Assembly (NCBI GenBank): GCA_900617105.1
Contig: UYFQ01000818.1
Location: 1-45,280, forward strand
Direction: 5' to 3'
Source of the DNA: Hydrurus foetidus
Taxonomy: Eukaryota
Length of the DNA: 45,280 nucleotides
The notes below the pieces were generated by a model. It saw only the letters and a list, made by a program, of their open reading frames with translations, was not told where the DNA came from and ran no database searches. Each line of letters begins with the position of its first letter. Position 1 is the first letter of the stretch. Shown here piece after piece: positions 1,135-41,986 of this stretch. The translations under genes were made by a program, and so were the position numbers.

Positions 1135-1249
1135 ATGGCAATATACGTGATACGAATTGGCATTGAGGAAGCGACTTGGTGCACATTGCACACCAATAAC
1201 AATCTACAAAATGTGTTTACTTATGATATCCTATCATGCTAATTGTTGA

Positions 1250-9873: not shown

Positions 9874-10298
9874 AAAGTAATTTGAAATTTTTTAACAAAA
9901 CAATTTCAAAAATAATCAACTTAGGTGGTAGAGACGTTTTTAAGTGGGTGGTATTAAAAGAAAAGATACTAATAAGGAGATACTAAATAAGAGTTATTTG
10001 ACGGGAGATATCAAATGAAAGATATTAAGTGAAAGTTACTAAGCTGGAAATATCAAGAGCGATCCTTTCAGACCCAGACCACTTTTTCAAAAATCCTAGG
10101 CAAATCTCGCCAGAGCATAACTAGTGTAGATTAGAAATCAAATCTGCTCGAAGAAAAGTCGTGTTCGAAATGAGGCCGTGGTCGAAGTAATGACTTCAAG
10201 AACTGAGTTAAGGGGCAACTGATCTTGATCTTTAACGAAAAGACAATTTCTGACTGTGTTCGAACTAAAGAACAGTGGAGTACATCTCACTTGTAGGA

Positions 10299-13664: not shown

Positions 13665-16504
13665 TTAGAAAGTTCTGCTGTATCTCTTGATCTCCATCAG
13701 AATGGTGGCTGTTGACACGACATCTCGACTGAAAGGGGGGGGACGGGCCCAGGACCTCTTGATGATTTCTTGGAACCGAGTATAGTAGAGCAGTAACTGG
13801 GTCAGCACCTGCTTTAAGATCTCCATGCCATTTCGAAAATTGGCGAAATAGGCTAGGACGTTGTCGTTTATTTGTTGTATTCCCGATCTCCAGTTGACGG
13901 AGAAGTCCCTCACCAGCCCTTCGACAAGCACTTCGTCTAACGAGAGGGAGACCGACCCGCCCCCGCCCCCTCCACTGCTTGTTGCAAGCTCTGTCATAGC
14001 GTGTTCTGTCTGCACCACAAAGGAAATCAATCTGGGGAAAGAAGTTTTGATTTCTTCTTCGGCGAATAGTTCCCTTTGTTGCAATAAAATGTCTTCGAAT
14101 TTCTGCACCTCTTCACTCACTACTCTTCTATCTTGAAATACACTTAGTATTTGATCGAAATTGTTGATGAAGAACACTTTTTGTTCCTTGGGGTTCGGAA
14201 TGAGAGAGGACAACTTCTCGAGCAGGAGGGCCATCTCTGACCGCATCAAGTGTATATCGTGTTCTAACATCTTCTCCCCTCCTCCTCCCACCCCCATGCT
14301 ATCCGATCCGGTCTGAAGGAAGAAAACACTCGACACTAACTCTGCATACCTCTTACTCACGTAGTGTGGGGACAAATCGATGGGTCCTAATTTCCTCGGA
14401 TTGGCCCCCTTAACACTTTTTAAATTCAAGTCAAAAACCTGTTTGAACCTCGGCCACAACAGCATGGAAATTCGGTCAAAAAAAGGATCCAATACGGGTA
14501 TTCTTCTTCTCTGCATCACCATTCGCTGCATGTGTGTGACTTTTATCACCAATAGTAGACCGATTGCGTCATAGCACCCCAATAGATAATTCTCGAGAAA
14601 TTCTAATATCAGCGATAATGTCTTCACGAACATCTTCGTGAATATTTCTCTTGTATTTGATTTAAAAAAATCAATCACGAAGAGAAACTCATTCGTAGCA
14701 GCATCGCTTAGGTGCTTTATAATTGACCGAAAGATAACTTCAATTGGATATTTTAGATTTTCTGCCACCGCTACATGGAGCAGAATTGGTTCATCTTCAA
14801 TTTGATCTAAGATCTTATCTCTTTCCCCCAGAGAGAAAGAGTCTGTTCTTTTTGATAAATTGACCTACATTTTATTGTCATATTGATTTTGTTGTGTTAT
14901 GCTGCGTGTTATTGAGGTGACTAGATCTTATGTCGTTGAATGGCAGATTGCAGTCGTATACAGTAATGAAACCATAATAGGTATGCAGGTATGACAACCA
15001 TCGACTATCGGAATCATATCGATCAAAGTTCAGACCTATACATTTTTACAGAACTAGAATCTATAAAAAAATCATACTTTATTTTGGTCAATTTCTGGAA
15101 GCACTTCTGTTCGTGCATTTGTACGTACTACGAATTTATTGGTGAGAACTTACTTTTTGTGTGAACATGGATTTTAGAGTCGCCTCCTCGACAGCAATTA
15201 AATCATTCTTTCCCGCCACAAATAGGTCTAATTTGAGCAATTGACTGCAGTAGCTCTTGAATAAATTTTGAAGTGTCTTGCCCATACTCTCCATATAAAT
15301 TGTTCTGAAATGCGGAGTGTTCATTGTGCATAATATTACGTAATGTCGGCAGAATGCGTTTACCTTCATTCGCATAGAATGTATACTTATTGGCAATGCA
15401 TAATATTGCCATCGGTCTATGGAGTTACTGTTGAATCTTTACTAAAATGTTGACAAGAGGTATCCTCAGTGGCACACTACATGAAAGAAAGACATGGATG
15501 GAGTACAGAGGAGAGAGTATGTCTGCAGATGTACAGGTGAATGATATGGCAAAAAGCCATAAGATAGTGGCATTGCCTCATCAGCTACAAATTGTCCCCT
15601 ACAATTATCAACGTATCATTCAATAAGTAAATCACCTGAGATCATCGGCAGCTGCTGGTGCTTCTGATTGAACGAACTGCAGAAGCGGTGCGTACTTACA
15701 CAACGAGTTCTGCTGCACCATCTGCACATTCGTTTTCGGTTTCCTAATGGCCTGGAATTGCTGCAAGAAGTAGTCTCTTGTTTTTGTGATAGCTCTGAGT
15801 TTTAATTTCTCCAAGTCAGGGAGTAGTGATCGTCCTGCGAATGTTTCTGAAGGTGGAATATCCAGTGACGATCCATCCTTGGCTGGTGACTCCTGCTGTA
15901 AGTATTTTAATTTGTTGCTGAGGCTGACAACAGCGTCTAAGAAGGCTTCGTTGATGTCTGGTGACGCAATATGTTCCGCCATCCCATGTGTTACACTAGA
16001 ATTATCGAGAAAGCAGTGAAGCTTGTCCTCGGCAGCTCGCCTGTGGTAATACACAGTGGACGGAGACAGCGATTTCATTACGTAAGTAGAAAGACTCGAA
16101 ATTTAATATGATCATACTCAGAGATGAGTGATCTTCGTTAAAAGATACCTGTTCCTTAGGCGTATGCTCATGGAAAGTGATTCGTCCTGAAGATGTTTGA
16201 TCTCCTCCGATATTCCCCCTAAATCAGCCTGGAATCCTAGAAGCATCTCCTGCATTCTCCCTAATACGGCATCACATTCTTGCATTTGTCGATGCAGATC
16301 AACGACTTGCTGGTCATTCTCAACATATTGAGCTACTGAATCCATTTCTGCGATTTTAAGCTCTTTCTCCAATTCAGCACCGTATTTTCTGAGATCCACC
16401 CCCCTATGCAAAGCTTGATGAACCATATCGTCCTCCTCAAAGGCAGACAAATCCTCACCAATCTCATCGAAATTAATCTCGTCATTTGTGAGAATGTCGG
16501 CCAT
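13665..16504 (-). CDS. VPS52: Vacuolar protein sorting 52 (GARP/EARP complex subunit), ~703 aa, 4 exons
   Basis: Exons 16504-16149, 16040-15636, 15304-15154, 14864-13665 (2112 nt, in phase). Motifs GVDLRKY, CDAVLGRMQEMLLGFQADLGGISEEIKHLQ.ES.SMSIRLRNR, LLWPRF, PHYVSKRYAE, FANFRNGMEILKQVLTQLLLYYTRF. Confidence 0.96.
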
Positions 16505-17378
16505 CTTGCTTCTGCCAATTTCCCTGATAAATTGTGTCGCTCGAATTGGAAAATGATTTAACGTTAGACCATCCAATTTCGCTTCATGTGTGGGTGAAAC
16601 GGAAACTTTTAAAACTATGCTGCTCAAGATGTAAAATGTCGAGGAATCTATTCGAACCCTTCCAACTTCTGACTTTCAGCAAACAAGACGCAAAAAATCA
16701 AAAATTACTTTTGGCAGCAGATTTTCTACAGGTCCAGCATTTTTCTTCTCTTCTTGATGTGGACTTCAAATTTCTAATATGGTTACTAAACGCCTCTAGA
16801 TTTCAATGAAATATCGCGAGAGAAAGTTCCAGTGAACGCTCCCTGCATCCGCTAGTTTCATTCTTGCAGCAGAAGACATCACCCCCGTCTCGATCGCAGA
16901 ATAAAATCAATAATTGAGGGGGATACGTAAATCAGTTATTCGTGAGATAAGGACAGATCGATAAGAGTCCTCGCTGATTGTAAATATGATAAGGTAGATG
17001 CGTTCTATTCTACTCCTCAAAGGAGCTATTAAATAATTTCGTCTCATGACGGTTGTTTCCGTTAGGACAGATGACATGTAAATCGTTTCACTTGGTCGAC
17101 ACGGCGCAGCACTACGGAGAAAACAATTATGTACGATCCAAGGGCTTACATGAAGATGTTGAGATATTCTTGAGTAATACTGGAAATAAAATATAATGTG
17201 ATTGTTTTCAATCAAATTCAACGTCTCCCCCTAACTACATGTAAGAAATGCTGGCAGCGAAATGTTACCGGGTGATCGACACTACATATGGATTCGTTTC
17301 TTAAGGTAGCAGTGAGGCAGCACTTCGGATTCTGAATATCAATGACCACCTCAGAGAGCCAAACTAAATTCAATTCCA

Positions 17379-18759
17379 TCAGAAGAATAAACTATACAAG
17401 TCAGGGAAGGAGCTCTCAGATGGTACGGCTACAGGAATTCCAGCGCTCAGACCCTTTATTTCTGACGAGAACGAGAGAAAGTATTAGATGTCAAAAAGTG
17501 AACACAGAAAATGTAGAAAGTGGAAAGTAGGAGCACAGTAAATTCTGAAAGAATGTGGCACAACGAGGTAGGGACAGCAAAGGGAGTGAAGCACTTACTG
17601 TGTAGACGAGCTACGAATAGCTTGCCCTTGGGAATGCCATCGGAGTCGTCACGAGAAGTGATGTAAATGTCATTCAGACAAGGGCCACCTATAATAACGG
17701 AGCGAAGGGAGTCACGTCAACGTCATTCTTTCCATTTGTACCCTTAGTTTCAATGTATGATCTCACCGAATGTGCATGCTGTCGGATTTATTATGGGTAG
17801 TCTCAGGCGCATCATTTCCTTTCCACTCTCTGGATTTATTCTAATCAAACATGACGCCCCAACAACAGCGACCTGAAGCAGGTTTCGAATAGCAGTAATG
17901 GGGTGAAGTCAGAATATTTATAAGAAGTCCAATTTGAAAATCAATACGGACCGAGATTCCTCTCGTCGTACGCGCAGTGACCTACCCACAGCTTCCCATC
18001 GCTGTCACATGTCATTCCATCTAGCATGCATCCAAACGATTTGTCAGCGTCGCCCAGAGTGTAAATGATGCGAGTCTTATGAATCTGATGCGAGCCATCT
18101 GCTGCTGCACTTTCGGCGTAACAATTAATTGTGTTATTGCCGGAGTCGATGAAATATAAATCGCCGTTTTTCGTCCAAGTTGAGCCATTAGGTAGATGAC
18201 AGTCGTTCTTGTCAAGCATCGGGCGTAAGTCCATCGATGCTTCAGCGCTTTTAGGATTAGATCTGCAGAGTTGATATAAGTTTCCTTTTTCACCATCCCT
18301 CCATTTTTTACTCATGTAACCTGCATACAGGCGGCCATCATGGTTGCATTTCCCATCATTGAATCTGCTATTTTTCGAAACGTTTTCTGGCAGTGAGCTC
18401 ACCACCCGTAGAATTTCTTTGCTGGTAAAATCTACTTCTAAAATTTCAAACTCTAATCCGACGAAAAGGATGACCTTGCGAGCAGTTGTTCGACTAGTTG
18501 GCACGGCAAATCCAACGGTTGAATTCATGACCATAGAGTCCACTGTATTCGTTGATGGCGAATAGCTGTAGACAATTTTTGCAGCGATGTCTATGTAGAA
18601 TAAACATTTCGATATGGAGCACCAATGTGGCGACTCTCCGTGAAGTGTTGGTGGCACAGTAACTTCCTCTACGACCATAAATTGCCGGGATGGAGTCCGA
18701 CAACGACCATCTGAATTGCCTTCAGTGGAGCAAAGAAGCTGACTGACATGCTGCCCCAT
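17379..18759 (-). CDS. SMP-30/gluconolactonase/regucalcin-family beta-propeller, ~350 aa, 4 exons
   Basis: Exons 18759-17986, 17872-17767, 17688-17599, 17461-17379 (1053 nt). Motifs HGESPHW, LFYIDI, SRFNDGKCNHDGRLYAG, PNG..W, LYFIDS, DGMTCDSDGKLWVA, PTACTFGGPCLNDIYITS. Confidence 0.93.
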
Positions 18760-19264
18760 GGCCTCCGAGTGACACCGGTCTCTTTAAAGCTTACTCAGTG
18801 TCCATCCGTACACACCTAGAGGTCCAGCTGCGAGAGCACGATTCACAGTTGAAACTCCAACAACTCGTACAAGCAGCGAAGCGCCATCAGCACAACAACG
18901 ACCCTTCGACGCAACCCGACGACGAAGTTTTTATTTGATGTGTAAAAACCAGAAATCAGATGTAAATGTAGAGTGTAACTAGTAACTAGCATGTACGAGA
19001 ATAACGATTCGATTAACGATCATGTGTAATGTGTAATATCATGAAACTGTCAAACACCCCTGATCCTTTTAGATTCAGCGGAGTAGCTTGAGCGGGCCCT
19101 CACATTCGATGAAAAATCTGTGCCACAAGCGACATCCGCGCCGATGTTTTCAATGAGTTCCGGGTCGATGACCTTCCTTCATCCCCTTCGCAATTCCATC
19201 TGGACTCCCCCTTCTTGAAATTGGTGATCATAATTGGTGACTGTATCCGTTTACTGTCGTAGGA

Positions 19265-22200
19265 ATGTCGCTCACCGGCAGCGCTGGTGTAAGCAGAATA
19301 AGAATCATAGGCAGTGGTGTTGAGGGAAGAACGGACAATCATTTCGCTCAGCCTAGAGGAATCTGTATCGATGAAGCAGCGAAAGAACTTTTCGTGGTGG
19401 ATTGTAACAACCACAGAGTCTGCGTCATTTCGCTCGTATCATTAACTTTTCTACGGCAGATAGGTCGAGGTATTCAGGGCTCTGGACCCGGTTGTTTAAA
19501 CTATGCTGTCGGGGCTTGCCTGGACTTCAAAAATCATCATATCTACGTAGCAGACACGAATAATCATAGAATAAGTGTTTTCGATCAAGTGACAGGCGTT
19601 TTTATACGCTGTATTGGGTTCCATGGTAGCGGTCGAGGGGAATTAAACAGTCCATACGGTGATTAACTGTGTTCTTCATATCTGTATTCCTACCATTCGG
19701 CGCTTATCTCACTTTACATTCCACGTCCTTGATTATCACATATAAAGGGGTCTGCATCGATGAAGCAACCGGGAGCCTCTTTGTGACAGATTATGATAAT
19801 CACAGAGTTCAGGTCTTCGACATTGCCTCACGGAAGTTCCTAAGAACTATCGGAAGTGGACTTGGCTCCGGACCTGGTCAGATGAACCAGCCGATTGTAC
19901 CATATCTCGACAGTGAAACCGGTTTCCTCTACATAGCAGACTACTCCAACAACAGAGTGCAGATATTCGATAAAGATAGTGGGGCTTACATTCGGCAAAT
20001 AGGGGGTGGTGGAGTGGGAGGAAGCGTGTCTGGTCTGGGAGCGGATGCCTTGAACGGACCACGCGGAATCTGCATAGACAAAGTATCCGGTCTTTTGTTC
20101 ATCGCTGATAGAGAGGTAATCGGGTAACCAATTTTGATGTCTCTTATCGCTGCTACGAGGGTAGGATACCGAATTGAATTGACCTTGGCGTTCACTTATT
20201 TGTATCACTCTCCAATCTGTATTCTGACCAATTCTTATTCTGCACGTCATCATATTTCAGAATCATCGGATCAAGGTCTACGATAAATCAACTTTCGTGT
20301 TCTTGAAGTTTCTCGGTGACGGCCAGGGTGCATCACCGGGACAGTTTCATCGACCCATGGAACTGTGCATCAGTGCGGATGACTCGTCAATATTTGTTGT
20401 TGACGGATACAATCACAGAGTCCAAGTATTCTTCCTACCAGAACTTCAAGCAGCTAGAAAAGCTGCCACGATGATAAATGAGAATAAGAATAAGGAGGGT
20501 ACTGTGGACCACGTTAGACCAAGCAAGCTGTGCCTTGAATCGAGAATATCTCTTCTAAGAATACCAAAATATCATCTACAGTCTACTGCCCTCACATCAA
20601 ATACACGCACACAGAGGAGCAGAGTTGATCTTTATTTCCCCCATATTGGGTCCTATATATCCGTACCCTCAGTGGATATCGACCATCTTCTTCGCATGGG
20701 TTTCTTTTCTTCATCTTCAACTTCAACTCCTGGTGAAGATTTTCATTACGGATTGGACACAAGTAACGCACTAGTCCCGCCCGATTATTTGAAATATGAG
20801 ATTGCAAAACTACCAAATAATAGCAATTCTAAGTTAAATCACCAGGCAGCTGTTTTCATGGGTTTGATCACTGGTGTTGCTGTGGACTCGATGGCGTGTA
20901 GCACTGCTCAAACAGCGTCAGAAAGGGATAGGAGTGAGGGTACATTAACTACAGCCCTTGACTTCCATCAAAATCAGAGTGACTTCAGCATCGACTACAG
21001 CCTGATAGTCCCCTCAGTGTTCGCCTTGGATGCACTGCTAAACAGAGGGTGGCTACCGGGTGTATCTATACCGTCACCCGTTATACACTCTCTAGTGCAC
21101 TTGATGTGCTATGGTGAGGCAACAGAGAGCTCTACCGGCAGCAGCGCAGAGAGACGCAGAGCTACATCAGCTGCAGCAGCTATACTAATAGCTGCTGTAG
21201 GTGCAGGGAAGGAATCTTGTGAAGCCATTTTCTCTTATATAATAGAAGAACTACAAATATCTTCTGTAAAATTCTCACCATCTGATCTAGAGACTAATGG
21301 CTCAGGATCACATTATTCCTCTGATGCAACTACACAGCAAGGAGAAATACCGCAAATACTAGTGACGTCATTCGGATCTGATCGAAGCATATTGGGAGAG
21401 GGTGGTCCTGATGCGCATGCAAATGGTGTCAAGTACGTAGATGATGAGGATGGGAGAGCAAAGGGAAGTGAGAGAAAGTCGGACTTGGGAGGGGGAGGAG
21501 GAGGCGGTGAATCAGCCCTGGAGGGAGATCCGTCTATCCACGCCCTCAGACTCATCGCCCTCATATTAAGCTCAGAAAGCGACACTGCGTATCCCTACCC
21601 CATGTCCCTCCTCTCCCAGCACGCTGTGGGTTCTGGCTGGGAAGCATCTCTAGTTACCCCTCCCACAGCTGGTCCGTCTCTGCCTGCACCTCCAGGACAC
21701 TCCAAGGTGTTAACATCAGCAACAGTATCTAAATGCAGACACATGGCACAAATCAGAATGCTGGTATTGGGTCTGGCGTGGACTACAGAACACGATGCGA
21801 GACACTGCGAAGATGAGAGGGGCAGGGAGAGGGAGATGAATCGCAGTGTCGGATTAAAGGGTCTCCCTCTCCCTCATATCAGCGCTCTTTCCAGCCGCTC
21901 TGCATCTCAATGTGCCTCACCTCTACCTCTACACTCCTTCCCTCCCTTCCCTCTAGGATCAAGCTCCTCCGCCTACCCCTTTCCTAAAGAATATTCTTCA
22001 AGAAAAGATTCCTCAGTATATTCCTCAAGTCTCTGCAATTTAACTGCAGAGACTCTGGACCTGGTGACTCTAGTATCTAAGATGAACAGAAGGCGCCAAG
22101 TTGTGGCGGATCTATCCGGTTTATTTGACGACTTCTACGAAGATTTGGCTTCTGTGTCTGCATTACAATTGGACTTGTTCAAGAAGGCAAAGATTTGCTT

Positions 22201-25200
22201 TACTCAGGTAATTCAAGCTGAAGTCAATTGCTGCATTCTGTATTGTCTTGCATTGCACTGATTCTCCTGTACTACTGGATTGTAGTACGTACATACGTAC
22301 TTTTTTTAATACACAGCATTTTGACCTCCATATATTCTCCGCACAGCTCCCTGTATATAAAGAAACTTCCAGGCAAAGTAGAAAGGCAGCTCAGGGAGGC
22401 AGACATATTTGGCAGATAGGGGAGCCACTAGCAGTGGGTGATCTGGTCGATGCGAGGGACAGAGAGAAGTCATGGTTTGAATCGTACGTTACAGAAGTAC
22501 GTCCTTCAGCAGCAGCCTCAAGTCCAACTAGAGCCGGATCGCAAGTGAAGGAAAGATTAGATGTTAAAGTGCATTACATGGGGTGGGGCTCGAAGTGGGA
22601 TGACTGGGTATCAGAATGGGACCTTGGGTCAAGGATTGCTCCACTAAATTCTAGATCCAAGAATTGGAGAGCGGATTTATTTGAAGGCGGATTAATCGAA
22701 ATTAAATGCAATGATGACATGGTGAATCAAAAATGGATGTGGGGTAAGATAATAGCACTGAACTTTACGGAGGGTTGGGTTGATGTATCGTACACCTTCA
22801 CGAACGAACCCACTGTAGTAAAACGAGCAGACCTTTTCGGTGAGACTTTATGCATGGTGGGAATGCATACGAAAGATAAATCTAAACTAGCTGCTGCCAG
22901 CATCGTAAGACCTGAGAGAAAGGTAGAAGACCTCTTGCGCTTTAAGACGCTCAATCGGAACTCCCCTACCCTTGTGGAGGATTTCACATTCTGTGATATG
23001 GATGACGCACTCACACCAGCAGAATCGGACATTCTGGATACGATGAGAGAGGTAGACCCAGGAACTGATTCCGCTCTTAGCATCACTGACTATCCGGATA
23101 GAATCGATCAAACTGTTTGTTTCATGCCGAAAATGGATATCCACGGTCTATCCAGTCTAGGCGCTGCGAATAGCATCAGCTCTGTTTCATTCAACTGCGT
23201 GATGAGGGAGGTACTAGAGACTCTCACAGAATACCTCTACGACAAGGAAGAGCCCGAATTGCTTCCCATCAAGACCGGGGGGTCCTACACGGCGTCATCT
23301 GGTACTGAGTCTCTCGCAAGAGTGCAGGCTGCCACAGATGTGCTGCACAGTATAGCAGCCAGTGCTGCCAGACATGTGTTGGTGCCCTTCTTCTGTCGTG
23401 CTTTGACAGTGCAGTGTGGGGTGAGGGCAAAGCTGATGGTGCAGAATGAGTGGCTGCGATCTCCTAACTTGCTCAGAGTGGATGTGTCTGTGTCTCCTCT
23501 GACTGCACTGCTGGTCAGATTGGATCACCTGGGAGACAGATACTGTTCCCTCCTTTTGGAGTGCTTCGATCCCAATCGTAGTGAAGAATTCGCCAGTCAG
23601 GCGTACAGTCTTCCGGTTGATCAGCTCCAACATGCTGCAAGACGAATCAAAGCAACAGTGACAAAGTGTGCAGTGACTCCCCTGGCACAGAGATTATACA
23701 GACACACTATCCCTTCGTCTCCCTCTCCATCTAGCTGTCCCTGCATCCACTTGAATAGCCTTGCAACAGCCCTGACAGACAACTTTCTCAACGGTCCTCG
23801 ATTCAATACATCTGCTACAGCTGTCAGGAAACTGCTCTGCTCTCTCATGCGATCTTCCTCTGCGAAGGATCTAGACGTACTTGAAGTACTGTGGACCGAT
23901 ACGATATCATCTTGGGTGGTGGACACTGTTGACAGATGCTGTACATCCAGTTCATCTGCTGGTGTGTTACATGAATTAGCTGGTACTTCCTGTGAGCAGT
24001 ACATTAATGCAGTCAGGGGCGTAGGAGAGGGAGATGAGAATGCCTCCGACCATCAAGTAGATCACACAAATCCCCAGAATTTGATGATATCTGTTCCTGT
24101 TCCTGTTCCTGCGTGTGTGGCAGAGGATGTGGAGGATCGTGAGGACAACTTATCTGACCGACGTGAAGAGTCTTTCTCACACCTCCTTCATCAAGTGCTC
24201 TCTATGCTTCACAAGGCCCGGTCCATATCTGCGTTAGAGTTCTCCGTCACTCACAGATGCACTCGCTCTGCTGACGTGGCGTTCCGCACAGCTTTTGAAT
24301 TGATTTCGGATGACGCACGATGCGGTCTAATACGGGCCATGGTGAGATCCATTGATGTGCACCAAACCTCGTCATCACATAGAAACATTCTTAGAGGTCT
24401 AGATGGTGTCCGCGGAGAAGATGGAAGAGGCCGGAGTAGAGGAAGTGGCAGAGATGTCAGTGGAGAGGATTGGAGTGAGAGTGAGAGAGAGGGCGAGCTG
24501 ACTTTAGAGAGCCTTTTGGAGTTGATTAAGGTGAGGGAATTATCTCCTCTTAGTCTAAGAATCTGCCATGTTTCCAGCGTTCTTCATTGTAACGACTCTT
24601 TCATTTTATTTTAAAGCATCTGTTTCTCGTTTCCCCTCACATCACCTAGAATATCACCACCAATGCGTTGAGATCTAACAAAAACATATCAAACACACAA
24701 TGACAGATATTACTGTCAGAAGAGAATTCAAAGTATTTCGAGACCTGCTATCAACTTCAACTTGCCCACCGGTTGATCAGATCAACAGTCCCTGAGGGCA
24801 TATCTGAAAGAAGGGGGAGATTCACACACACAGAAAGGAGTGTGCTGGATAGTCTACCACCAATGTCAATGGCTTCTAAGATGATCAATGATATCGATAG
24901 AACGTGTGATACCATGAGCGATTTCAGACATCGCCTGTTGACACGATTGGACAGCGATGACATGGACTGTGAGCCCAACAATTCCTATGCACTAAGTCTT
25001 GCTGTGAAGCCTGGCGCTCTGACAGTGCACACCCTCTCCGCCTCTCACTGGCCTACAGGCTGCATGTCAGCGACAGCTTTCTCCTCCCTGATACTACCCC
25101 CTACACTCTCTGTCATGGCTGACGAATTCGAGTCATTCTTTCACTCCTCCAGCTCTACTGATGTGAGGTACATCAATGTGCTCAAATTCAAGAACTCATT

Positions 25201-28200
25201 CTCCCCTCCTGATGATCCTAAAGGTGAGAGTAGGCCAGGGGGTTCCAGAAGATTGCACTGGTGTCACGGAGAAGGCAGTGTTACACTCACATGCAGATTG
25301 AACGAAAAGCCAGGTGGCTTCTCAGTTCCTTTTTATTCAGCTGCAAGATCGACAGTAGCGAGTGTTACTCTTGTTCTCAGCACGCCACAAGCTGCTGTGC
25401 TTCTTGCCTTTCAGTCCACTGCTATGGGCCCTTCTAGTGGTAGAGACAGGGACTGTGGAGAGCGCAGTGTGCTTGACATAAGCCTGAAGACTGGTCTGTG
25501 GGGTGAAGAACTCGCATGCGTACTTCAATCACTGTGTGACTCTGCTCTGCCATTGCTCTGCAGAGGTCGATGCAACAGTGAGGCGTACATACTGTCTCCA
25601 CGCCTACTAAGCGGTCAGCTGGGAGGCTCAGACGACACTCTCATAGCAAAATCCAGTGCAAATCCGAACAAGGCATCCATACAGCTGTCCCGATCCTGGA
25701 GAGACACTTTGATAGATGCATGCATAATTCGAACGTTGAAGAAGAAGGGCACTGACACAGACAAAGGCAAAGATAAATCAGATTATTTTGTGACTTGCAA
25801 AGGAGTCACTAACAGCAACTGCCTTTCATTTCACGATCTATGCACTGCAGTGAAAACTGTTCTGGAGTTGAAAAGTCGTCTAGTGGTACTGCCATCTGAG
25901 GATGTGCGTGTCAGATGTAATTACTTGGTGGAGAAAGGGTATATAGAGGCGGTGAAAGGGTTGTCTAGTCTCTCACTTCAATCGATGGGATATGCCTATC
26001 AAGTGCAAGTGCCTGCCCCGGCCACCTCTACATGTCCTCTACGTGAAGGCATTCCAAATGGGGACAAATTGTTCCATCAGGTGTGTAATGTAGTGTCTCC
26101 TACTTTGTTAGGAACTGTAAGTGCAGAAGATATCCGGATATCGTGCAGTCAATTTAGTAGAGCAGTCATGGGGTGGATGGTAAAGTCCCCCTTCGAGTCG
26201 AGAGTGACGTCATCCACGTTGAACACCTTTCCCATGGTTAGATCTCTCGCTCCTATCCCTATTCCTACCCCCATCCCCGTCCCTGTCCCCTATGGTATCG
26301 CATCCTTGGGGCCACGCAATGAGTCTCCCGTACAGCGGAGGGAAACCGGTAGGATGTATGCAGATGACGAGGATAGAAGTGGGGAGCAGAAGGACAACAT
26401 CTATCTCGCAAACATTCGGTGCAAGAGTTACCCCCAAATCGGCACTCGGTACCGAGGAATGACACCTAGGGAATATAGCGCATCCAATGAAAGTCTACGC
26501 AGCATCCACAAAAAACTAGTGCTAGCGTTCTCGGCTAGTGTGGAGCAAGTGCGGAGACTTAAACATCAACACTTACTCATCTTTGGAATCGATGGATCCA
26601 CGGTACCTTTCAGAGACACACATTTCTCGACTTCAAAAAAGGACCATCTAGTCTACAGAAACTTGATAGATGGACTTGGAGTTGATTCCGAGGAGTGTGA
26701 GACATTATTCGATGTCAACAAAACAGTTCTATGCAGTCTGCCGCGGCGTACTATTCAACTTGTGCTAGATGTATTCGAAAGTTTGCAAACTCGCCCTCAA
26801 ACTGATCACGTTGAGGATGGCCTTAATGCTGATGTCAAAGGCATGCGCCTCGACTCCACATCACTGCCAACATCTGGGGACCCCAGTGAGTGTGAGGGCG
26901 AGGGAGAGGGGGACGAGTCAAAGGGATCCCCCAGAAGTACTGACAGCCGCGGTAGCAGCAATAATGGTGGTGGTGCTAATGCCATTTACACCGTCGCTGT
27001 GGACCGATGGGACTTCAAGAGGGTTACACCTGACTGCAGAATCACTCCCACCAGAGCACTTGAACCACCTCTAGACTTGGAGTCATGCCATGTGAAGAAG
27101 CCTTCAGCGAGTCACGCATCAGTAGAGGGAAAAAATTTAGACAATACACCTGCTTCTCAGAGACAGGACAGTCAGGGAGTCAAGAGTAAGGGCGGTAGTG
27201 AAGCACCGCATGCGCATGTGTTAGATAGCAGAGCAGTCCTGATAGAGCGTGTGAAGAGTACTTGGGACCAGCCCTCTAGAATTAGAGAGGATTCCTTTCA
27301 AGCCCTCTTAGAGTCCCTCAGTGCAGCTTCAATCGATGCCAATCAGCATCAAAATAGCACGACCAGCCCGCCTCAAAGTCACCCACACAGCACGGACATC
27401 GCGTACAACTCTTTCTATGTGCACCCTAGAGAAGGTCTTTCCCTCTCTCTGTCTTTTCTGGAACATATTCAAGAGCGGTTACATTTCGCAGATCCTCACA
27501 GTGGAGATGAAGGTGAGGAAATATGCAATGGCGAGAACTCATACTCTCTCTGGCGGTCGCGATTGAATTTTGTTACGATAAATTGCACGTTTGCGTCTCT
27601 CACCTATCATCTGTGCCATACCCAAAATGAATCCCCTTCATACCATACCCTCCTCTAATCATTTCTCTACTATTTCTCTTTTTCTCTCCGTGCTTCTTCC
27701 ATCATCTTTACCTTTCACAGAGAGAGTATCCCCTCACTCCGACTCCACCTCGAGTCATCGAGATGACGTCACGGACGCCTTCTCGTCCTCACCAAGGAAG
27801 AAGTCACCCTCTGCAATTAGCGGCCTTCCTCTTATAGCCGAGCGAAAATTATCTGGTTTGCTCTCCTCAGATCGTAGTGGTGACACCCCATCAAATTACA
27901 TGACTCTGTCCGAGTTTGTTGCGCTGGCCCTCAGGGTCGCATCTCCTAGAGGTGTGGACAGGGCAGGGTTTGCAAGGAGATCTCCAGCCGTCCCTTCCTC
28001 TGTCTCTGGGAAGAGCGAGAGTGACAGATATGACCCATCAAGATCGCATCCTGACAGCTTCTATACGGACAGCAACAAGTGGATGGACGATCAGTCACGA
28101 TTCGCTACTGGTGCACACACACAGACTGCACCGCACACATTGCCTCACACAATGAAGAACGCAGCAGCCAAAGATCATCGAGTGAGGGAGAAGACTTCAC

Positions 28201-31104
28201 GTATATGCAGCAGCAACAGAGATCGCAAAGTGCGTATGCGCGTCACGAGGAGCACCCCTACGGCATCACTGTCCTCGTCAGGGCTGTCAAACTCTCATAC
28301 AACAGGTGCATCTGATGACGTTGCAGGAGGAGGCGGGGAGGCGTTTGAGTGCAACTTCAACTCCCTCAAGACAACAGCATTTAGAAACCCTCCGTATGAG
28401 GACCTACCCACTACCTTGAGTCTACCAAGCAGTGCAGATCAATTGGCATCCTCCCGCTTCCTCTTCGGTACTAGCTACCACACGCCACGCACCCCTGACA
28501 TGGATTGTTCTGAGAGAGAAACAGAATCAGGGGGGTCGGGGTCGGGGACTGGAGGCAGTTCTGTTTTAAGCTATTCGGACACCTACAAGCAAGTCAGCGA
28601 TCAACTTCCGACGACGCCCTCTCCGTTTCGACACCTTTCTTACGACAGTAACAGCAACAGCAACAGCAGCAGCGCATCACCCAACTCCCACAACTCAAGC
28701 ATGTTCTCCGATGCTGCAAAGTCGCACACTCCTGTTCTGACTCCTCGCCTACAGCTGCACCACCATGATGCAGCTCCACCAGCAGCAGGAGGTAGTCCCA
28801 GTATATCTACCGTTTTGAAGAATCCATACTGTGTTTCAACAGCCACTTCTCCTCACACTAGTGCGAAAGAACAAGTGACGTCATCATGTGACGCACCACT
28901 AGTGGATCGGAATAAATGGCACTATAACCCCTTGTATTCAGAACAATTCGACAACACCTGGATCACTGGAAAGAAAGCCGTCAGCAGCAGTGGCGGTAGC
29001 AATATTGGTAGTGGCAATGGTAGTGGGACAGAGAGCAGTTTACAGGACGCCATTAGCTGTTACATGAGAAAAATGGACATTTGTCTCGGGGAGATATTGG
29101 GGGTGTTTGAGAGCACACACAGCAGAGCTTTCTTCGCTACAGAGCAGGGAGGACCATTGTCCGCTGAAAAGAAAGCAGAGGAAAGCACGTCTACTTCTAT
29201 ACTTGAGAACACTATGCTCGCGTTACTGGACAATATTACGTCACATTCTCTCAAGCCATCCAGACAGTCACGGCATAACTCATCTTTAGTGCAAGTTTCC
29301 GTCCTCATCAGCCGCGTTGATGAAGACATCGGGGCATACATGCGCTATATAGAGGAGTGCTTCTACTCACTTGACATAGATAAAGATGGATATTTGACCT
29401 TAAGGGATTTCACAGAAGAGGACTTTGGGTGCTCTCTGGTATCTATCGCATCTGATGTAGACAGTGATAATGAAGAAGAAAATGAAGATGGAAGCGAAGA
29501 GAAGAGCACTGAACAAACAGGTGCACCATCTGGTGCCAATATAAGCGTTCTATCATCTCCATCAGAGACATCCCCATCCCTCGCTTCCTCTCCATATCCC
29601 CACTCCCCTAGAACTCTGAGTCTTGCGAAGCAGGTATGACCCTGTTGACATGGCAGCTGATGTGATTTGTTGGCTGACTTGCTAGCGCACAACTTCAATG
29701 TGCTGATCTCTTTCTTCCTTTCTTATCATGAACAATCAGCATACACTCGGAACAATCGCTATTGACAGCTTGGTGCAGCGCATACTTCAGTTCTTGGAGT
29801 GCGACATGTCTATGTCCCACGAAGTTCTCCATCTCCTCGTGCAATTCAAATGGGACCCAGACGCCCTCTTACTCCACCTCACAGAGTCGTCTAGAGCAGG
29901 AGTGAGAGAATCTATTTCTGCAGAGAGAAGTTACCGCATGATGTCAGCTACTCTCAACAGACTGGGACCTAAGCGCAAGGGAGAGAACGCACTAGTGTTT
30001 CCGTGTGTGTGCGGCTCATTCTCCAACACATGCGATGTATACGCCATGAAGGAGTGCGGTCACTGGCTGTGTCGCACTTGCTGGCTAGACGTCATCTACA
30101 GCTCATGTGAATCTCTCAGTGCTCCTCAATCTTCTCTATGGAAGTGCCCACACACAGCATGCGGCGCTACCATGCAAGGAGACTTTGTCAGCAACTTACG
30201 AGGCAAGGCAGACACGTACATCCAGTGGAACTACTACATCTCACAACTCCACTCTAATGCAGACTATCTGCATCTGGATGATCAGAATATAGGTGACTCT
30301 TCGTTCTCCCCTTCTCTCTCCTCTACTTACAAGTGTCCCTCTCCTGCCAGCGCTGAAGTTATGGCGTGGTGGACCGGTTCATCCCAGAGCTCTTCTCCCT
30401 TTCCGAAGATCTCAAAGGGCGACACACGATCCTCACACTTTCTTTTTCAGTCAGCGATTGAGCTGGGTCATATTGTCGACAAAGATCGGGAGAGGGATAC
30501 GTCAAGTAGCGGAGGTGCATCTCCCGCTGATCATATTAATGGCGGGTTGCTGATGACCATAGAGGCGTACAGGCGAATAGTTGGCAGTGCCGATGCAGCT
30601 GAGCGCTGTGCCTTGGATGCTACCACTGCTGCGGAGAGTGCAGTAGATGGTGCAGCTGCTGTAAGACTACTCAACCTGTCGGATAGGTGGGGTCTGCTGG
30701 TAGACACCCTTACTCTTCTCGCACATACGCACGTCATGCTCGCTGCAGAAGCGGAGTTCAGAGACGCCTCTCAGCCCCTGTTTCTTGGGAGGTCTGGTGA
30801 GTCATGGGCGGACATGCGGTGCATATCCACCTATGTGGAGGTGTTCGAGAGGCTCGCTGCGTCTTACAGCGATGCCCTCTCAAAGCTCACCAGTGAGTCC
30901 GTCAAAAACACGCAGCAGACAGGACCTGAGATATGTGCACTCACAGTACAGACCCACAATATGGCTGGTACCGTCCGTATGATGCAAGGGAAGCTCATAG
31001 AAAGACTTGCAGCGACACACAGACTGCAGCCCAAATGCATAATAAGTGCACCGGATAGCTCAGTACGACTCGAAAGAGAGTTCAATGTGTCTCCCCTCCA
31101 CTAA
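19265..31104 (+). CDS. Giant multidomain protein (~3,658 aa, 7 exons): NHL repeats, tandem Tudor/chromo-barrel-like, cullin homology with neddylation winged helix, EF-hand, Ariadne-type UBA-like/RING1/helical domain
   Basis: Exons 19265-19658, 19748-20115, 20261-22207, 22347-24530, 24707-27512, 27721-29633, 29740-31104 (10,977 nt; all GT-AG, phases compatible). NHL: P.GICID..., IYVADTNNHRI. Tudor-like: VGDLVDARD...W...VKVHYMGWGSKWDDWV...RIAP. Cullin: YFETCYQLQLAHRLI, TLSASHWP, RRLHWCHGEG, STPQAAVLLAF, IDACIIRTLKK, YLVEKGYI. EF-hand: DIDKDGYLTLRD. RING1: CVC...CGHWLCRTCW...CPHTAC. That the exons form one transcript is inferred. Confidence 0.8.
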
Positions 31105-31660
31105 ATTGATTTATCCTGTTCATAACACTCTCCAACGAAACACACTTACATGAAAGAGAAGTTTCAGTGACGGTTGGCAAAGCCGGTCGTAAGCTGGAGA
31201 AACAACTTGGCGCTAGAGAAAAACAGTGCGATGTATACGCCACATCCGAATTTTAAATTATGTACATTATTTTCCTTGATATTGAATCTCTTGATATAGC
31301 TCCCACATCAATTTCCTTTCAGACTCACTGTACAACTTAGAACAAAACAAACACTTGCTGTAAGATTCAGACAAGAATGCTGGTAACCGAAGAATCTTGA
31401 TACTAAACACAAGGAACGTCTTTCATGTCTAGCAGACTTACTGACATCGGTATCTATCGGCGTTATTACTGTGATAAGAGTTACGAGTATGATACATGGC
31501 ACTGTTTCCTGTTGCACTCAAAAATTCTGAGGAATGGAAGAAGACGGGTTTGATTACCACTGCTGGGTGACTTTCCATCTCGAGTTTCAAATTTTTATCA
31601 CATTCCCCAAGTGCCTTCTGTCTAGTCGACCGACCCCGTCACTTCGAATTACGCCAAAAA

Positions 31661-33721: not shown

Positions 33722-34084
33722 GTAGAACATTCGACGGATGAGAACAGAAAGAAAACAGAAAACAAGGCAAATCCAATCCACAGATAGTGAAAATTCAAAA
33801 TAATAGGGGGGAAAATCAAAAATCAGAACTACTGAAGCGAGGGTTGCAGATATCTAGTATCTAGTGGCAAAGTGAAAGGATCTCGTTCGATCTCGATGAC
33901 AGCGAACACACGCGAAATTAGTTGTTCACATCGTCGCATCCGTAGGTCAAGTGATAAACCATCAACGTGCCTTAGTTGTCGGAAAACTACATAGCACAAG
34001 CAAGCGGATTGATCTCACACTAGAGTGTCCAACGTTCGACGTCCACCATCAGGAACATAACGCAGCAAGTTGTATTTGATAGTA

Positions 34085-35366
34085 ATGGGAACTAAGATTT
34101 CTCAATTTGCCGGAACACAACTTGATGTTGTGTTGAAGAAAAGTCCTCGCATTGTCAAGACATTCTCGTCATCAGAGGAGGGCACCAGAAACTCTTCGGA
34201 AAATGCGTCATATGATTCCCCGAGGCTTAGTCCGAGCAGTCTCCACCTTGACCCAACTGAATTATTCCAATACCGAAGACGACCAGACCAAGGAAAATCT
34301 TCATCTGATTACTCTGTCCGATTAAACTCACCAAGTAGCTACGAGGTAGATACCGGGACAATGATAAATGAATTGCTGTCGCTCTGTGAATCGGGAAGTG
34401 GATCAGCAATCACAGATCTACTTGAACACGGTGAAATCCCAGAAGAGTTCATCAACAGCTACCATGATTGTTACGTGGGAGACCGTCAGATGAACCTGAC
34501 TCCTCTAATGCTAGCTGCTGCTTGTGGACATCCTCACATAATTGTCGAGTTTCTTGCCTCACGATCCGTCTTCGTAAACGCACGATCTGAGGACATGTAC
34601 GGTCAAACAGCATTACATATTGCTGTGAGTCTCGGGCAACTAAAATGCATAGAGGTGCTGGCTGCTCATGCGAATGTGGACATTAATGCTACAGATACCA
34701 TGGGCATGACGCCACTGCACTTAGCAGCCTATGGAAACTATGATGAAGCGATTGAGCTGCTGCTGGAGAGGGGTGAAAGTTCATGCGAAATCCAAGATTC
34801 TAATGGAAATAATGTCTTCCACATTGGAGCGATGTCGAACAATGTCAGTGCAATCAAACTAATCATAAGACACGCTGCTATGGTTGATTTCGGTGAGATC
34901 TGTCGATATGGAGACACGGTGGATTTGTCCGATTCTAAACGGCCTGCAATGGGAGAGGCACTTCGACATCTGACAGAGGTAAGAAGATTTGCTCCGGTAA
35001 TATTCTAAGCAGTCAGACTGATAGTAATTTCCTCCCTTCTGAATCTTGCAGGCTGTAAACAATGACGGTTATAACGTCAAGATGATCTTACAGCAAAACA
35101 TAGCAAATTTAAAAATGCCACCTACATCTTATCAGCCACGTCCTCCAAACTATCTGGAACTATGCGATGACGCGCACCGCTGTTTTGTGCTGTACACTAG
35201 GGCGACATACTACCCTTCTGTTCTCAGGAGATCAGGGAACAGTCTACTGAGCATGGAGGAGAACAGTCCCTCTGAAGACGTGACTGCTGCTCTGTCTTGG
35301 AGTCCTAGAGCCGTGCTGAGGGAGAACGGATCGTACATGAAGATTTGTTCGCCACTTTCCCACTAG
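34085..35366 (+). CDS. Ankyrin-repeat protein, ~402 aa, 2 exons, predicted N-myristoylation
   Basis: Exons 34085-34978 and 35052-35366 (73-bp GT-AG intron). Ankyrin motifs LTPLMLAAACGH, GQTALHIAVSLG, GMTPLHLAAYGN, GNNVFHIGA. N-terminus MGTKIS. The 3' end could involve further splicing. Confidence 0.9.
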
Positions 35367-36308: not shown

Positions 36309-39300
36309 CTACGTGTCGTCCTTCCTCATCATGCCCTCTAGGACTTCTTTAGGGGGGCGGTACACGGTGGGTAGGAACTGGACCTGTAACTGGTTGATGC
36401 TGTACACCCTCCTCCCGATGTTCTTCTCGGCTATCATAATGCGCACTCCGTGGATCCTAGAACCATAGTCAGTGAGATTCCATGCAGGAAAAGGTAAATG
36501 AGTGATTTGAGTGAGTTGATGGGTTGATTATGGACTTGACTGAAGTGACAGATGAGCACTAATTAAGTTGGGTGCACTTCAACAAAAGGATTAGAGTGGA
36601 CAAAGGCATGTCTCGGAGACACATAGATGGACAGACATGTAGACATGTAGACAGGGAGAAATCACTACTGACGTTCGCACCTCATCACATTTGCATCTCT
36701 GAGAACCCTCTCCATGGACTGGCCACACCCGAACCTTTCTCCTAGCTGCCTACTCTGCTCGTACGTCACCGCCATGCCCGTACGATCTTTCCCACTCTTG
36801 CAGAAAGTGACCCTGCACCCCCCCAACATCACACACACTCTCTCTACAGCTACGAGCATCTCCACATTCTTCGAGTTAATGTTGCCGTTGGCGAGGATGG
36901 TTTCGGTGAGCTCTTCTAGCAGGGGGTGGGAGGACAGGGGCATAGGAGAGGTCGGGGTGTTCAGACTGCTGCCAGTGGTACGACTTCCCCTCTCACTGCG
37001 CGCGCTTGCACCTCCACCTGACTTGAAGTAAGACGCTCCATAGGCTCGAACTGCCGACCCTGCAGCTGAAGTGGCGGCAGATGTGAGGGACATGGCCATG
37101 GAGAGGTTGCGGGTAGTCGCAGCTGCACGGGACTGCCCGTTCCTCGCACTTGATGACTGTGACGACCTGAACCTGTCGTGCTGCTCCTTGACTGCAGCTG
37201 CAGCAGACGGCTCAAAGTTTACCCCACCCGTCGCACTGAGCCCCTCCCTGTCCCCTTCCACCGGTCGGAACGAACAGCAGTACCCCTCAAGGAGAGCAAG
37301 CCCCCTGACGTTCACCACGTGTTGGAGGTTCTTCATGGCAGTCAGATCTTCAGATACTACAGGGGAGGGCGACTCTCTGCCCCCCTCCAGGGGTCTAGTC
37401 ACCTTCGACTTATCAGTGGTGGCTTGACTAGCCATTGCAGAAAAGGATGTGGCGGCAAGTGCGAGTGTTTGCTGCATGTCGATTCCCTGTTATCGGAGAG
37501 TTGAGAGAGTGGAGAGATTACACAATTGTACTTGTACTTATTTGCTTTGTGCATGTGCGTGGATGAAGAGGATAGGCGTATGACGCACTAAATCATTGGC
37601 ATAGAATGGAAGAGATGGGAAGAAAAGGCAAGTTCTAAATAAATGCAGATAGCGGATATTATCACATGTAGTCCAACTAAAAGTCGTGTGTATGACTTAT
37701 TATATACCATACCTGAGAGAACAGAGCAGCAACAATTCTCAACACCGCTCCCCCATTACGTGCCCTCGTCTGAAACTCTTCAGGCAGAGCTGCTAAAGCG
37801 TCAGAAGGCATATACAACATCACTTCCTTGCCCATTATGCCCACTTCAACGACAGGTGGACGATCCTCCCCGTGAGCTTGGTCCGCTTCAAACCGGATGA
37901 GGTCATTGAGATAGTTGGACCCCTCCCTCTTCGTCCCTTGTTCCTTCTCATCCAAGGGCAGTATGCACACTTGGAACTGAGAGAGAGCTTCTATGGCGCT
38001 GACCGTGTCTTCCAGCATGAATCTCTCTGATCCGATCACAGAGAGCAGACCCTCGAAAACCAGCAAGAATCCGTGGGTCAGCCACCCCACACACACCTCT
38101 TCAGGAATGTGCTTCTCCGCTATTAGTGTGAGTTTCATGAGCACAGCAGACACTGCGATTGACACGGCTTGGGAGACAGCGAATGTTCTGCGTCTGCATG
38201 TAGACAGCAGATCTGTCTCGTACGTGAGCACCTCCGCTCCTATCCTCTCGTACAATGCAAAAGCAGGGCTCCTTCTTAGGAGAGGAGCCGTCGCATAATT
38301 GTGACTACTGCTGATGTTCCGATCAGTTGTAAGTACGTCATCGGTGTGGTTCCTGGATCTAGAGTCCTGAATACTAGCTTCAAGCAGCTTCTTCAATCCA
38401 TCCATTCTCGCCCTTGACGCGTTTAAAGACGATTCCATTGCATCTAGTCCCTTCTTCTGAGTGAACCCCAGACCGTGTGGGGAAAGACACCCGCACGTCA
38501 TCGCATCCAATACGTCCTCCATAGGGGGGTCATCCGGTCGGGATGGGTCCAAAGTCCCTGGCAGCATCATGGCACGCACAGTAAGTACTTGCATGTGCAG
38601 ATTAACAGGCACAGCTTGATGAGTCATTATCTTTTTGGCCGTAGATGGCCGGAATGCACCGTTTTTGTCGAGCAGATCCTGTGCATTATTTCTGGCGATT
38701 AGGAGCTCTCTTGATAACAACTCTATCTGCTGTATGTGACTGTCCAGCCAGTCGGGGGGATAGTCGTAGTCCACGCGTAATGCATCCATCTCCTCGTTGC
38801 TGTTGACATGTCGGTTGGGAAGTGGTGAGACGTCTCTTGAGGTGAGTGAGGCTGATACCATTGACACGTCAGCATCGCTCACACCGGAATCATCATCATC
38901 GAAGGAGAGCAAATCAGCTTCACCCATCGCATTATTTCTGCTGCTGCTCTTGATCTTATGTTGCGTGAGTTCAGTCTGATAAAGGGGGGACAATGTACTC
39001 TGATCCGTCAGTTCCAGAGGATCAGTCGTATCATACCCTAATTGCAGCTCGAACTCTCTGCAGCCCTTTAGGATATCAGAGGGAGTGCGACTCTCACACG
39101 TGGAGATGTGCCTCTCTCCTGCCATGTTCTGTGATGCATCTAGTGCGTCACTCTTGCTGCCCACTACGTGCAACGGACTGAGTATTTCTATGGACACCAA
39201 CAGCTGCATGCCTGACGTGGTATCACCTACGGCACCACCCACTGAATTTTCAGCCACCCAACTGGTAATAGTCCGACGGCTAAATCCGGCATTATCGGTT

Positions 39301-41421: not shown

Positions 41422-41676
41422 TACTCCGATGAAAGTAGCCACGCTGTCAAGCTTATGCGATTCATATCAATCGAAGATAGAGATTTCAGGCGGTAGTATC
41501 GAAAAGCGTCGTATTTGATAGTGCTGATAAAGGCGCTCGAGAAGTTCGAGGGGACCTAACGCAATGCGACGCGACGCGACGCCAGCTATGACAATTTGCA
41601 CTGTCGATAGCGAAGTTCAAAAAACTTTGAATGATCGTAGCATGAAGCAAAGCATAGCGCATAGGTAGTAAGTAGT

Positions 41677-41711: not shown

Positions 41712-41986
41712 TAGATAGGTACTATACCCTAGTTTCGTGTTTCGTGTTCGAAGACAGAAAATGAGTGAAATTTGATACAGATATTTTGTGATTAATACCA
41801 AATTTTGTATCTTTCTTCGTCATCTTAAAATCTCTCCATAATGTCAATATGGAATATGGATACTGTATGTACTGTAGCAGGAAGCAGATAGCAGATAACA
41901 GATAGCACCATAGCAGCTTTCACTAGCAGCGGGTATCCAGTTCGGAACTCCAGTCCGAACATAGTCGCCACAGCAGAGGATCTAAT

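What the first reader, a model, noticed from the sequence alone, without database searches (positions are those of the whole stretch)
24707..26000. Internal, divergent cullin module that retains the neddylation lysine
Seen: cullin motifs occur in the correct order: FE..Y...LA.RL, KMINDI, L.V.TLS..HWP, LP..L....EFE.F, RRLHW...G.V.L, ST.QA.VLLAF, I...TGL..EEL..VLQSL. These are followed by IDACIIRTLKK (~25712-25744) and YLVEKGYI. Known: the canonical motif is IDAAIVRIMK, where K is the NEDD8 acceptor, and it normally lies near the C-terminus of cullins. Here about 1,600 aa follow it. Inference: NEDD8 could switch the fused Ariadne module in cis.
Basis: partly seen in the sequence, partly recalled or inferred. 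Interest (0 to 1): 0.7.

Follow-up and report, generated by a model that had tools for sequence, protein, structure and literature searches.

The report
Algal CUL9-like cullin with dead Ariadne
An expressed gene of a freshwater protist, likely a golden alga, encodes a giant cullin fused to an Ariadne ligase module that has lost its catalytic cysteine, so the module likely acts as a built-in clamp rather than an enzyme, while sister genes keep the complete cullin-Ariadne fusion that papers describe only for animal CUL9.

Summary
The stretch is the complete C-terminal half of a cullin inside one spliced, expressed 3,658-aa protein: NHL propeller, two Tudor-like barrels, cullin, 1,145-aa linker, Ariadne-type tail. 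K1976 aligns with the canonical NEDD8-site Lys, lies in a well-predicted winged helix and is Lys in 77 of 77 family motifs located; 1,682 aa follow it. The inference needs correcting: this Ariadne tail keeps its UBA-like Trp and RING1 but has no IBR and no Rcat cysteine, so NEDD8 cannot switch on RBR catalysis here. Twelve of 12 relatives of this type also lack Rcat, yet the Ariadne-like helices are under strong purifying selection (14 silent, 2 replacement changes). Best reading: a neddylated cullin-RBX ligase with built-in receptors and a built-in dead Ariadne clamp. A sister group (Chlorochromonas, Spumella, Mallomonas, unnamed protists) keeps a complete catalytic RBR whose best solved match is human CUL9, not ARIH1/2 (4 of 4 tested). 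The CUL9 layout is thus not confined to chordates. One ancient fusion versus convergence is unresolved: the RBR tree leans to one origin, the cullin tree does not. No binding or neddylation was shown.

The parts
19265..31104 (+). Whole gene, 7 exons (19265-19658, 19748-20115, 20261-22207, 22347-24530, 24707-27512, 27721-29633, 29740-31104), one 3,658-aa reading frame
   Evidence: introns 3-6 seen as GT..AG joints in RNA, stranded cover in 30 of 30 bins; introns 1-2 inferred from frame and from 60% identity to the intron-free relative P0009
19292..20434 (+). NHL-repeat beta-propeller (aa 10-312), likely substrate receptor
   Evidence: Pfam NHL E 2e-17 and 7e-19 on exons 1-2; six repeats in P0009; role inferred
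22407..22877 (+). Two Tudor/chromo-like barrels (aa 924-1080), strongly conserved in this subfamily
   Evidence: Pfam MSL3_chromo-like E 0.0005-0.0008, below cut-off; own profile 220-335 bits in the relatives that carry it
23115..24530 (+). Helical region, likely cullin repeats and four-helix bundle
   Evidence: no Pfam hit in the window; Pfam Cullin covers the matching region of relatives P0009, P0064, P0073 from profile position 244-303; inferred
24707..25663 (+). Cullin homology (C/R) domain with the strands that pair with RBX1 in canonical cullins (aa 1632-1950)
25670..26005 (+). Winged-helix B domain through the position of the canonical cullin C-terminus (aa 1953-2064), with an insert after the Lys
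25739..25741 (+). K1976, predicted NEDD8 acceptor
26012..29760 (+). 1,145-aa linker, largely low in hydrophobic residues, poorly conserved
   Evidence: 560-938 aa in 14 non-animal relatives, 100 aa in Ciona CUL9
29349..29414 (+). Single EF-hand-like loop, also present in both subfamilies
   Evidence: Pfam EF-hand E 0.02-0.05, below cut-off
29761..29895 (+). UBA-like element of the Ariadne family with W3242 (= ARIH1 W140), predicted NEDD8 contact
   Evidence: W140 role from PMC3817463
30004..30177 (+). RING1 (aa 3293-3350); first Cys pair spaced CxC instead of CxxC
   Evidence: 25.5 bits against a shuffled maximum of 4.1
30184..30552 (+). Span where IBR and Rcat lie in intact relatives; zinc ligands and catalytic Cys absent; relaxed selection
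30553..31023 (+). Helical tail, likely remnant of the Ariadne domain, under purifying selection
   Evidence: weak profile match (2.3 bits; shuffled 99th centile 1.7, maximum 4.7), one aligned motif; 14 silent / 2 replacement changes

Best explanation
The gene encodes one 3,658-aa protein in which a complete cullin C-terminal domain is fused to an Ariadne tail lacking IBR and the catalytic Rcat cysteine; it likely works as an RBX1-bound, NEDD8-modified cullin ligase whose dead Ariadne tail would fold back as a built-in clamp. Shown: one spliced transcript model, the cullin fold, the conserved Lys, the loss of Rcat, selection on the tail. Inferred, with odds: the C/R strands bind RBX1 (0.85); K1976 is neddylated (0.8); NHL propeller and Tudor pair recruit substrates in place of an adaptor (0.6); on neddylation the UBA-like element binds NEDD8 and the Ariadne helices bind the RBX RING, as in CUL9 (0.6); with no cysteine to relay ubiquitin, the docked tail shields NEDD8 from removal and gates access of E2 to RBX1, holding the complex in a long-lived neddylated state (0.5).
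For: Gene model and expression; relatives encode the same order as single intron-free ORFs (L001, L002, L003). Lys: one of only 12 invariant columns of 357 in 16 non-animal sequences of median 29% identity, while the 14 other Lys columns reach at most 7 of 16; Lys in 77 of 77 family-type motifs located among 168 proteins. Fold. Loss of catalysis: no IBR or Rcat match in six frames of the window or by family profile (-0.6 and 0.1 bits); 12 of 12 chosen relatives lack Rcat, 10 of 12 keep RING1, 12 of 12 show the UBA-like Trp in the alignment. [quoted passage not shown] Precedent: catalytically dead HHARI/TRIAD1 raise cullin neddylation, slow deneddylation, and dead HHARI lowers CUL1 activity (PMC3817463 section 11). 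Selection: Ariadne-like span 14 silent/2 replacement, former IBR-Rcat span 6/8 (Fisher p 0.019).
Against: No binding or neddylation was tested. The window's Ariadne-domain match is within the range of shuffles; only 3 of the other 11 Rcat-less proteins score clearly on it (8-15 bits), so several may have lost it. The UBA-like profile score is modest (7.2 bits) and ARIH1 V123/I124 could not be aligned. The 1,145-aa linker allows trans as well as cis docking. The selection count rests on one metatranscriptome variant (37 sites in 36 codons). RING1 is lost in P0009/P0012 while they keep the tail of IBR, so the subfamily is not uniform. The Cullin_Nedd8 match is below cut-off and the winged helix carries an insert just after the Lys.
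Confidence: 0.5

Rival explanations
1. The kept RING1 acts as an ordinary RING ligase: neddylation positions it and its E2 hands ubiquitin straight to substrates held by the NHL/Tudor end, so the tail is a second catalytic centre without a cysteine relay.
For: RING1 is kept in 10 of 12 Rcat-less proteins, more regularly than the Ariadne helices; in CUL9 an E2 sits on RING1 of the neddylated protomer.
Against: Lost in P0009/P0012; first Cys pair shortened in the window; RBR RING1 domains are thought not to promote direct transfer (recalled, not read here).
Confidence: 0.2
2. The protein is a non-neddylated or rarely neddylated scaffold, in the manner recalled for CUL7, that works with another cullin or with the intact paralog; the Lys is kept for packing.
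For: Very divergent winged helix with an insert; CUL9 itself is hard to neddylate in vitro.
Against: The Lys is invariant where nearly everything else varies; it co-occurs with the UBA-like Trp needed for binding neddylated cullins.
Confidence: 0.17
3. One reading: NEDD8 on K1976 switches on a catalytic Ariadne RBR in the same chain.
For: Shown for human CUL9; plausible (about 0.7) for the intact sister group, 15 non-animal proteins with the Rcat Cys-x-His motif.
Against: No IBR, no Rcat, no catalytic motif in this gene; the last exon is covered without a further joint in RNA.
Confidence: 0.03
4. A decaying gene: the tail is junk left after loss of function.
For: The former IBR-Rcat span drifts (pN/pS 0.4); poor profile scores.
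Against: Open 3,658-codon frame, spliced and expressed; last exon pN/pS 0.15 overall, 0.05 in the helices; the same layout in many diverged genomes.
Confidence: 0.03

Closest known systems
CUL9/PARC (human, PDB 8q7e/8q7h; PMC11257990)
   Same: Cullin C-terminal domain with an internal NEDD8-site Lys followed in the same chain by UBA-like, RING1 and Ariadne elements; substrate-binding domains at the N-terminus. The RBR of intact relatives matches CUL9 better than ARIH1/2 in 4 of 4 tests.
   Different: No CPH, DOC or CUL7/9 N-terminal domain detected; NHL and Tudor-like domains instead; 1,145-aa linker against about 100; no IBR, no Rcat; the cullin half scores poorly on CUL9 (E 0.0076 against 5e-12 for CUL4B).
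Neddylated CRL-ARIH1/ARIH2 E3-E3 assemblies (PMC3817463; PDB 7b5l, 7oni)
   Same: The same docking parts: winged-helix Lys, UBA-like Trp (W140), RING1, Ariadne-like helices.
   Different: Fused in one chain and without the catalytic domain; closest in effect to the engineered dead mutants C357S/C310S.
Canonical cullins CUL1-5
   Same: C/R plus winged-helix fold over CUL1 452-776 and the acceptor Lys.
   Different: In canonical hits the Lys lies 52-59 aa from the end (33 of 40); here 1,682. No adaptor-binding N-terminal repeat was recognised; a family-specific Trp replaces the Asp/Glu before the motif.
CUL7
   Same: Large cullin of CUL9 type without a working RBR (recalled).
   Different: CUL7 lacks the whole RBR element (recalled); this protein keeps UBA-like, RING1 and helical tail.

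Membership tests
Cullin | Cullin homology (C/R) domain | tested here: met
   Pfam Cullin E 4.2e-14 above cut-off; model Z 17.5, rmsd 2.7 A over 220 residues to CUL1
Cullin | Winged-helix B domain with the NEDD8 acceptor Lys | tested here: met
   the Pfam Cullin_Nedd8 score alone is below cut-off
Cullin | Binds RBX1/RBX2 | not testable with these tools
Cullin | Is neddylated in cells | not testable with these tools
   needs proteomics or an in vitro assay
Ariadne-family RBR E3 ligase | UBA-like element before RING1 | tested here: met
   7.2 bits against shuffled maximum 4.9; Trp aligns with ARIH1 W140
Ariadne-family RBR E3 ligase | RING1 | tested here: met
   25.5 bits against shuffled maximum 4.1; first Cys pair shortened
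Ariadne-family RBR E3 ligase | IBR domain | tested here: not met
Ariadne-family RBR E3 ligase | Rcat (RING2) with catalytic Cys | tested here: not met
Ariadne-family RBR E3 ligase | C-terminal Ariadne helical domain | tested here: inconclusive
   2.3 bits, inside the shuffled range; right position, one aligned motif, strong selection
CUL9/PARC | Cullin and catalytic Ariadne RBR in one chain | tested here: not met
   not met for the window protein (no Rcat); met for 15 non-animal relatives
CUL9/PARC | CPH and DOC domains | tested here: not met
   no Pfam hit while Ciona CUL9 shows both; pairwise tests with the Ciona domains gave no E under 0.1 in 13 comparisons
CUL9/PARC | Common descent of the fusion (orthology) | tested here: inconclusive
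   RBR tree 90/90 for fusions plus CUL9 but AU p 0.218; cullin tree: holding Ciona CUL9 with canonical cullins gave a likelihood 11.1 higher than the quick free tree, AU p 0.71

The most novel reading that the evidence does not exclude
The cullin-Ariadne fusion known as CUL9 is not a chordate invention but dates from before animals and stramenopiles parted; golden algae kept it, duplicated it and turned one copy into a natural pseudo-RBR: a cullin ligase carrying its own dead Ariadne clamp that locks NEDD8 on.
Probability: 0.25. Interest if true: 0.82.

Novelty: new variant of a known kind. Interest (0 to 1): 0.62.

Why it matters
CUL9 is described as unique among cullins in carrying an Ariadne RBR and as vertebrate-specific (PMC11257990) or restricted to chordates (PMC2785787). 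A protist family with the same layout, whose RBR is most like CUL9's, means either that the fusion is ancient and widely lost or that cullin-Ariadne partnership was hard-wired twice; both show that the E3-E3 mechanism is old and strongly selected. The Rcat-less subfamily is a natural version of the dead-ARIH1 experiment and separates the docking and NEDD8-shielding role of Ariadne proteins from their catalysis, which can be tested directly by comparing the two paralog types.

Tried and rejected
No genome is held for the window, so whether this organism also has the intact paralog is untested. Single-sequence search of the cullin exon against solved structures found nothing; the profile was needed. 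First fold from 4 sequences failed (pLDDT 37). A search for stand-alone Ariadnes with an RBR profile returned only 2 fish CUL9 fragments among 7,999 candidates, so no cellular ARIH1, ARIH2, ANKIB1 or stramenopile Ariadne is in the RBR tree; 4 Ariadnes from giant-virus bins and 9 other RBRs stood in. The profile score for CUL9 is biased by Ciona CUL9 in the alignment and was not used. The quick cullin tree that placed Ciona CUL9 among the fusions (98 aLRT, branch 3.7) was rejected as support. A CPH-like start in P0023 (E 1.8) and a DOC-like start in P0150 were seen by eye and not confirmed. Atlas: the cullin part matched cullin clusters (0.93, recognition below the trusted level); P0023 gave one sub-0.9 IBR cluster. 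No complex was folded: no RBX1 or NEDD8 sequence was at hand (one search found none). Two viral pattern scans found nothing. In the cullin tree Rcat-less proteins did not form one group (3 changes, weak support), so one loss or several cannot be told. Nine paper searches showed no report of a non-animal cullin-RBR fusion or an Rcat-less Ariadne; subscription papers on RBR evolution and the supplements of PMC2785787 were not seen.
Full report
What is there. The window is eukaryotic and no genome is held for it. The finding lies in exon 5 of a plus-strand gene of seven exons, 19265-31104, that reads as one frame of 3,658 aa. Stranded poly(A) reads cover all 30 bins of 19000-31500, almost wholly on one strand within the gene, and show the four introns between exons 3 and 7 as GT..AG joints; a metatranscriptome repeats three of them. 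Introns 1 and 2 had no listed joint and rest on frame and on 60% identity to an intron-free relative. No read spans the whole gene, but relatives encode the same order of domains as single ORFs (L001-L003). The order is NHL propeller, helical region, two Tudor-like barrels, helical region, cullin C/R domain, winged helix, 1,145-aa linker with an EF-hand-like loop, UBA-like element, RING1, helical tail.

The observation. Every motif is present, in order and in frame. K1976 (25739-25741) falls on the Lys of IDAAIVRIMK in CUL4A, residue 705 (that this is the NEDD8 site is established knowledge, recalled), and on K1992 of Ciona CUL9. A model built on 122 sequences has mean pLDDT 81.6, about 92 around the Lys, which sits in a long helix; it matches CUL1 from 452 to its last residue 776 (Z 20.7, rmsd 8.9 A over 303 residues, reflecting the mobile winged helix; C/R part rmsd 2.7 A). 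Among 16 non-animal sequences of median 29% identity only 12 of 357 columns are invariant and K1976 is one; the other 14 Lys columns reach 7 of 16 at most. Of 168 proteins examined, the motif was located in 117: Lys in 77 of 77 family-type (including the window, Ciona CUL9 and several near-copies) and 40 of 40 canonical-type, 33 of which end 52-59 aa later; five with a winged-helix hit were not located by the pattern, and two of these show the Lys by eye.

The correction. The tail is not a working RBR. Against a profile of 13 intact RBRs it matches UBA-like and RING1 (39.6 bits), then nothing until one short Ariadne motif. IBR and Rcat score -0.6 and 0.1 bits, have no match in six frames of the window, and the last exon is covered by RNA with no further joint. 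Twelve proteins of this type, chosen because their frame runs at least 350 aa past the UBA-like Trp, all lack Rcat; 10 keep RING1, 7 show NHL and 9 the Tudor motif. Most are intron-blind gene calls, so a missed exon is excluded only where Ariadne-like helices follow in the same frame (window, P0009, P0012, P0073). The tail is nevertheless maintained: against a metatranscriptome variant the helical part has 14 silent and 2 conservative replacement changes, the former IBR-Rcat span 6 and 8 (Fisher p 0.019). Against this, the Ariadne identity of the helices is weak by profile (2.3 bits, shuffled maximum 4.7).

How it likely works. [quoted passage not shown] ARIH1 needs its UBA-like residues including W140 to bind neddylated CUL1, and catalytically dead ARIH1/ARIH2 raise cullin neddylation and slow its removal, dead ARIH1 also lowering CUL1 activity (PMC3817463, passages and section 11). 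The window protein keeps those docking parts and has lost the catalytic ones. The best reading is therefore a cullin-RBX ligase with its own receptors and its own dead Ariadne clamp (0.5). Rivals are RING1 acting as a plain RING (0.2) and a scaffold that is not neddylated (0.17). None of the binding steps was tested.

The sister group. Searches found 15 non-animal proteins with cullin, acceptor Lys and an Rcat Cys-x-His motif, among them Chlorochromonas danica, Spumella vulgaris (IBR missing from its gene model) and Mallomonas annulata, plus P0150 with Cys but no His. Their RBR matches human CUL9 better than ARIH1 or ARIH2 in 4 of 4 tests: 3.6e-28 against 1.2e-20, 3.8e-40 against 1e-30, 6.3e-34 against 3.4e-28, 5e-31 against 2.1e-28, and they share CUL9's Trp-x-x-x-Gly-Gly-aromatic linker, absent from the four stand-alone Ariadnes fetched. 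ANKIB1 did not appear in those lists and was not compared.

One origin or two. In an RBR tree of 29 rows, 13 protist fusions and 3 CUL9 form one side at 90/90, but the alternative is not rejected (AU p 0.218) and no cellular stand-alone Ariadne was available. In a cullin tree of 53 rows the quick search put Ciona CUL9 among the fusions, yet holding it with canonical cullins gave a likelihood 11.1 higher (p 0.71), so the cullin half gives no support. CPH and DOC domains were not found. Two unchecked scan notes describe cullin-free CPH-RBR proteins in protists nearest to CUL9, which would allow an old CUL9-type RBR that met a cullin twice. I put one ancient fusion at about 0.35.

Novelty. Papers call CUL9 unique among cullins and vertebrate-specific or chordate-restricted, with three cullin groups in stramenopiles (PMC2785787, passages); Dictyostelium has five ordinary cullins (PMC9108976, passages). 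Nine searches of the open library showed no non-animal cullin-RBR fusion; subscription papers and supplements were not seen. The protein works like CUL9 in layout and is a cullin by test, but is neither a member of the RBR ligases nor shown to be a CUL9 ortholog: a new variant of a known kind, interest 0.62.

Noticed in passing
window 41927-42907 (+): UFD1-like protein (Pfam UFD1_N1/N2) with a hydrophobic N-terminus resembling a signal peptide; may be the plastid-import (SELMA) copy of algae with complex plastids (recalled idea).
   Followed up: no
window 43671-45278 (-) and 1-2721 (-): Retrotransposon pol with RT, RNase H and integrase; the low-complexity ORFs at the left end have no Pfam hit and may be element-derived.
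   Followed up: partly
window 17941-18783 (-), 13665-16675 (-), 34061-35008 (+): SMP-30/gluconolactonase gene head to head with the cullin gene; VPS52; ankyrin-repeat protein.
   Followed up: partly
window 36665-41466 (-) and 10269-11645 (+): No Pfam hit, but a CKSGKDRT motif suggests an INPP4-type phosphatase and the other ORF resembles a SUN-domain protein (both recalled).
   Followed up: no
L005 7629-9758, L006 6639-8606, L007 4437-6590, L008, L009: Bacterial bins, one labelled Candidatus Dependentiae, encode RBR-type proteins with the catalytic motif, two to a locus in L005, L008 and L009; possible host-directed ligases of protist parasites.
   Followed up: partly
L004 1760-3256, L013, L017, L019: Giant-virus bins encode stand-alone Ariadne-type RBRs with intact catalytic motif.
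   Followed up: partly
P0003 about 1385-1545 and other intact relatives: An unannotated insert of about 130-150 aa inside the cullin domain is shared by the intact subfamily and absent from the window, P0009 and P0023; several also carry a small zinc finger in the linker (XAF1_C-like).
   Followed up: no
P0023 1945-1982; P0134 30-111; P0150 Rcat: P0023 ends in RNA polymerase II tail-like heptads; P0134 begins with an IFT46 match, perhaps a gene-call read-through; P0150 keeps the Rcat Cys but has Arg for His.
   Followed up: no
P0112, P0108, P0201, P0064 C-termini: Several Rcat-less relatives continue for 400-1,370 aa past the UBA-like Trp with helical, repeat-like sequence, suggesting replacement of the catalytic part by other modules.
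   Followed up: no
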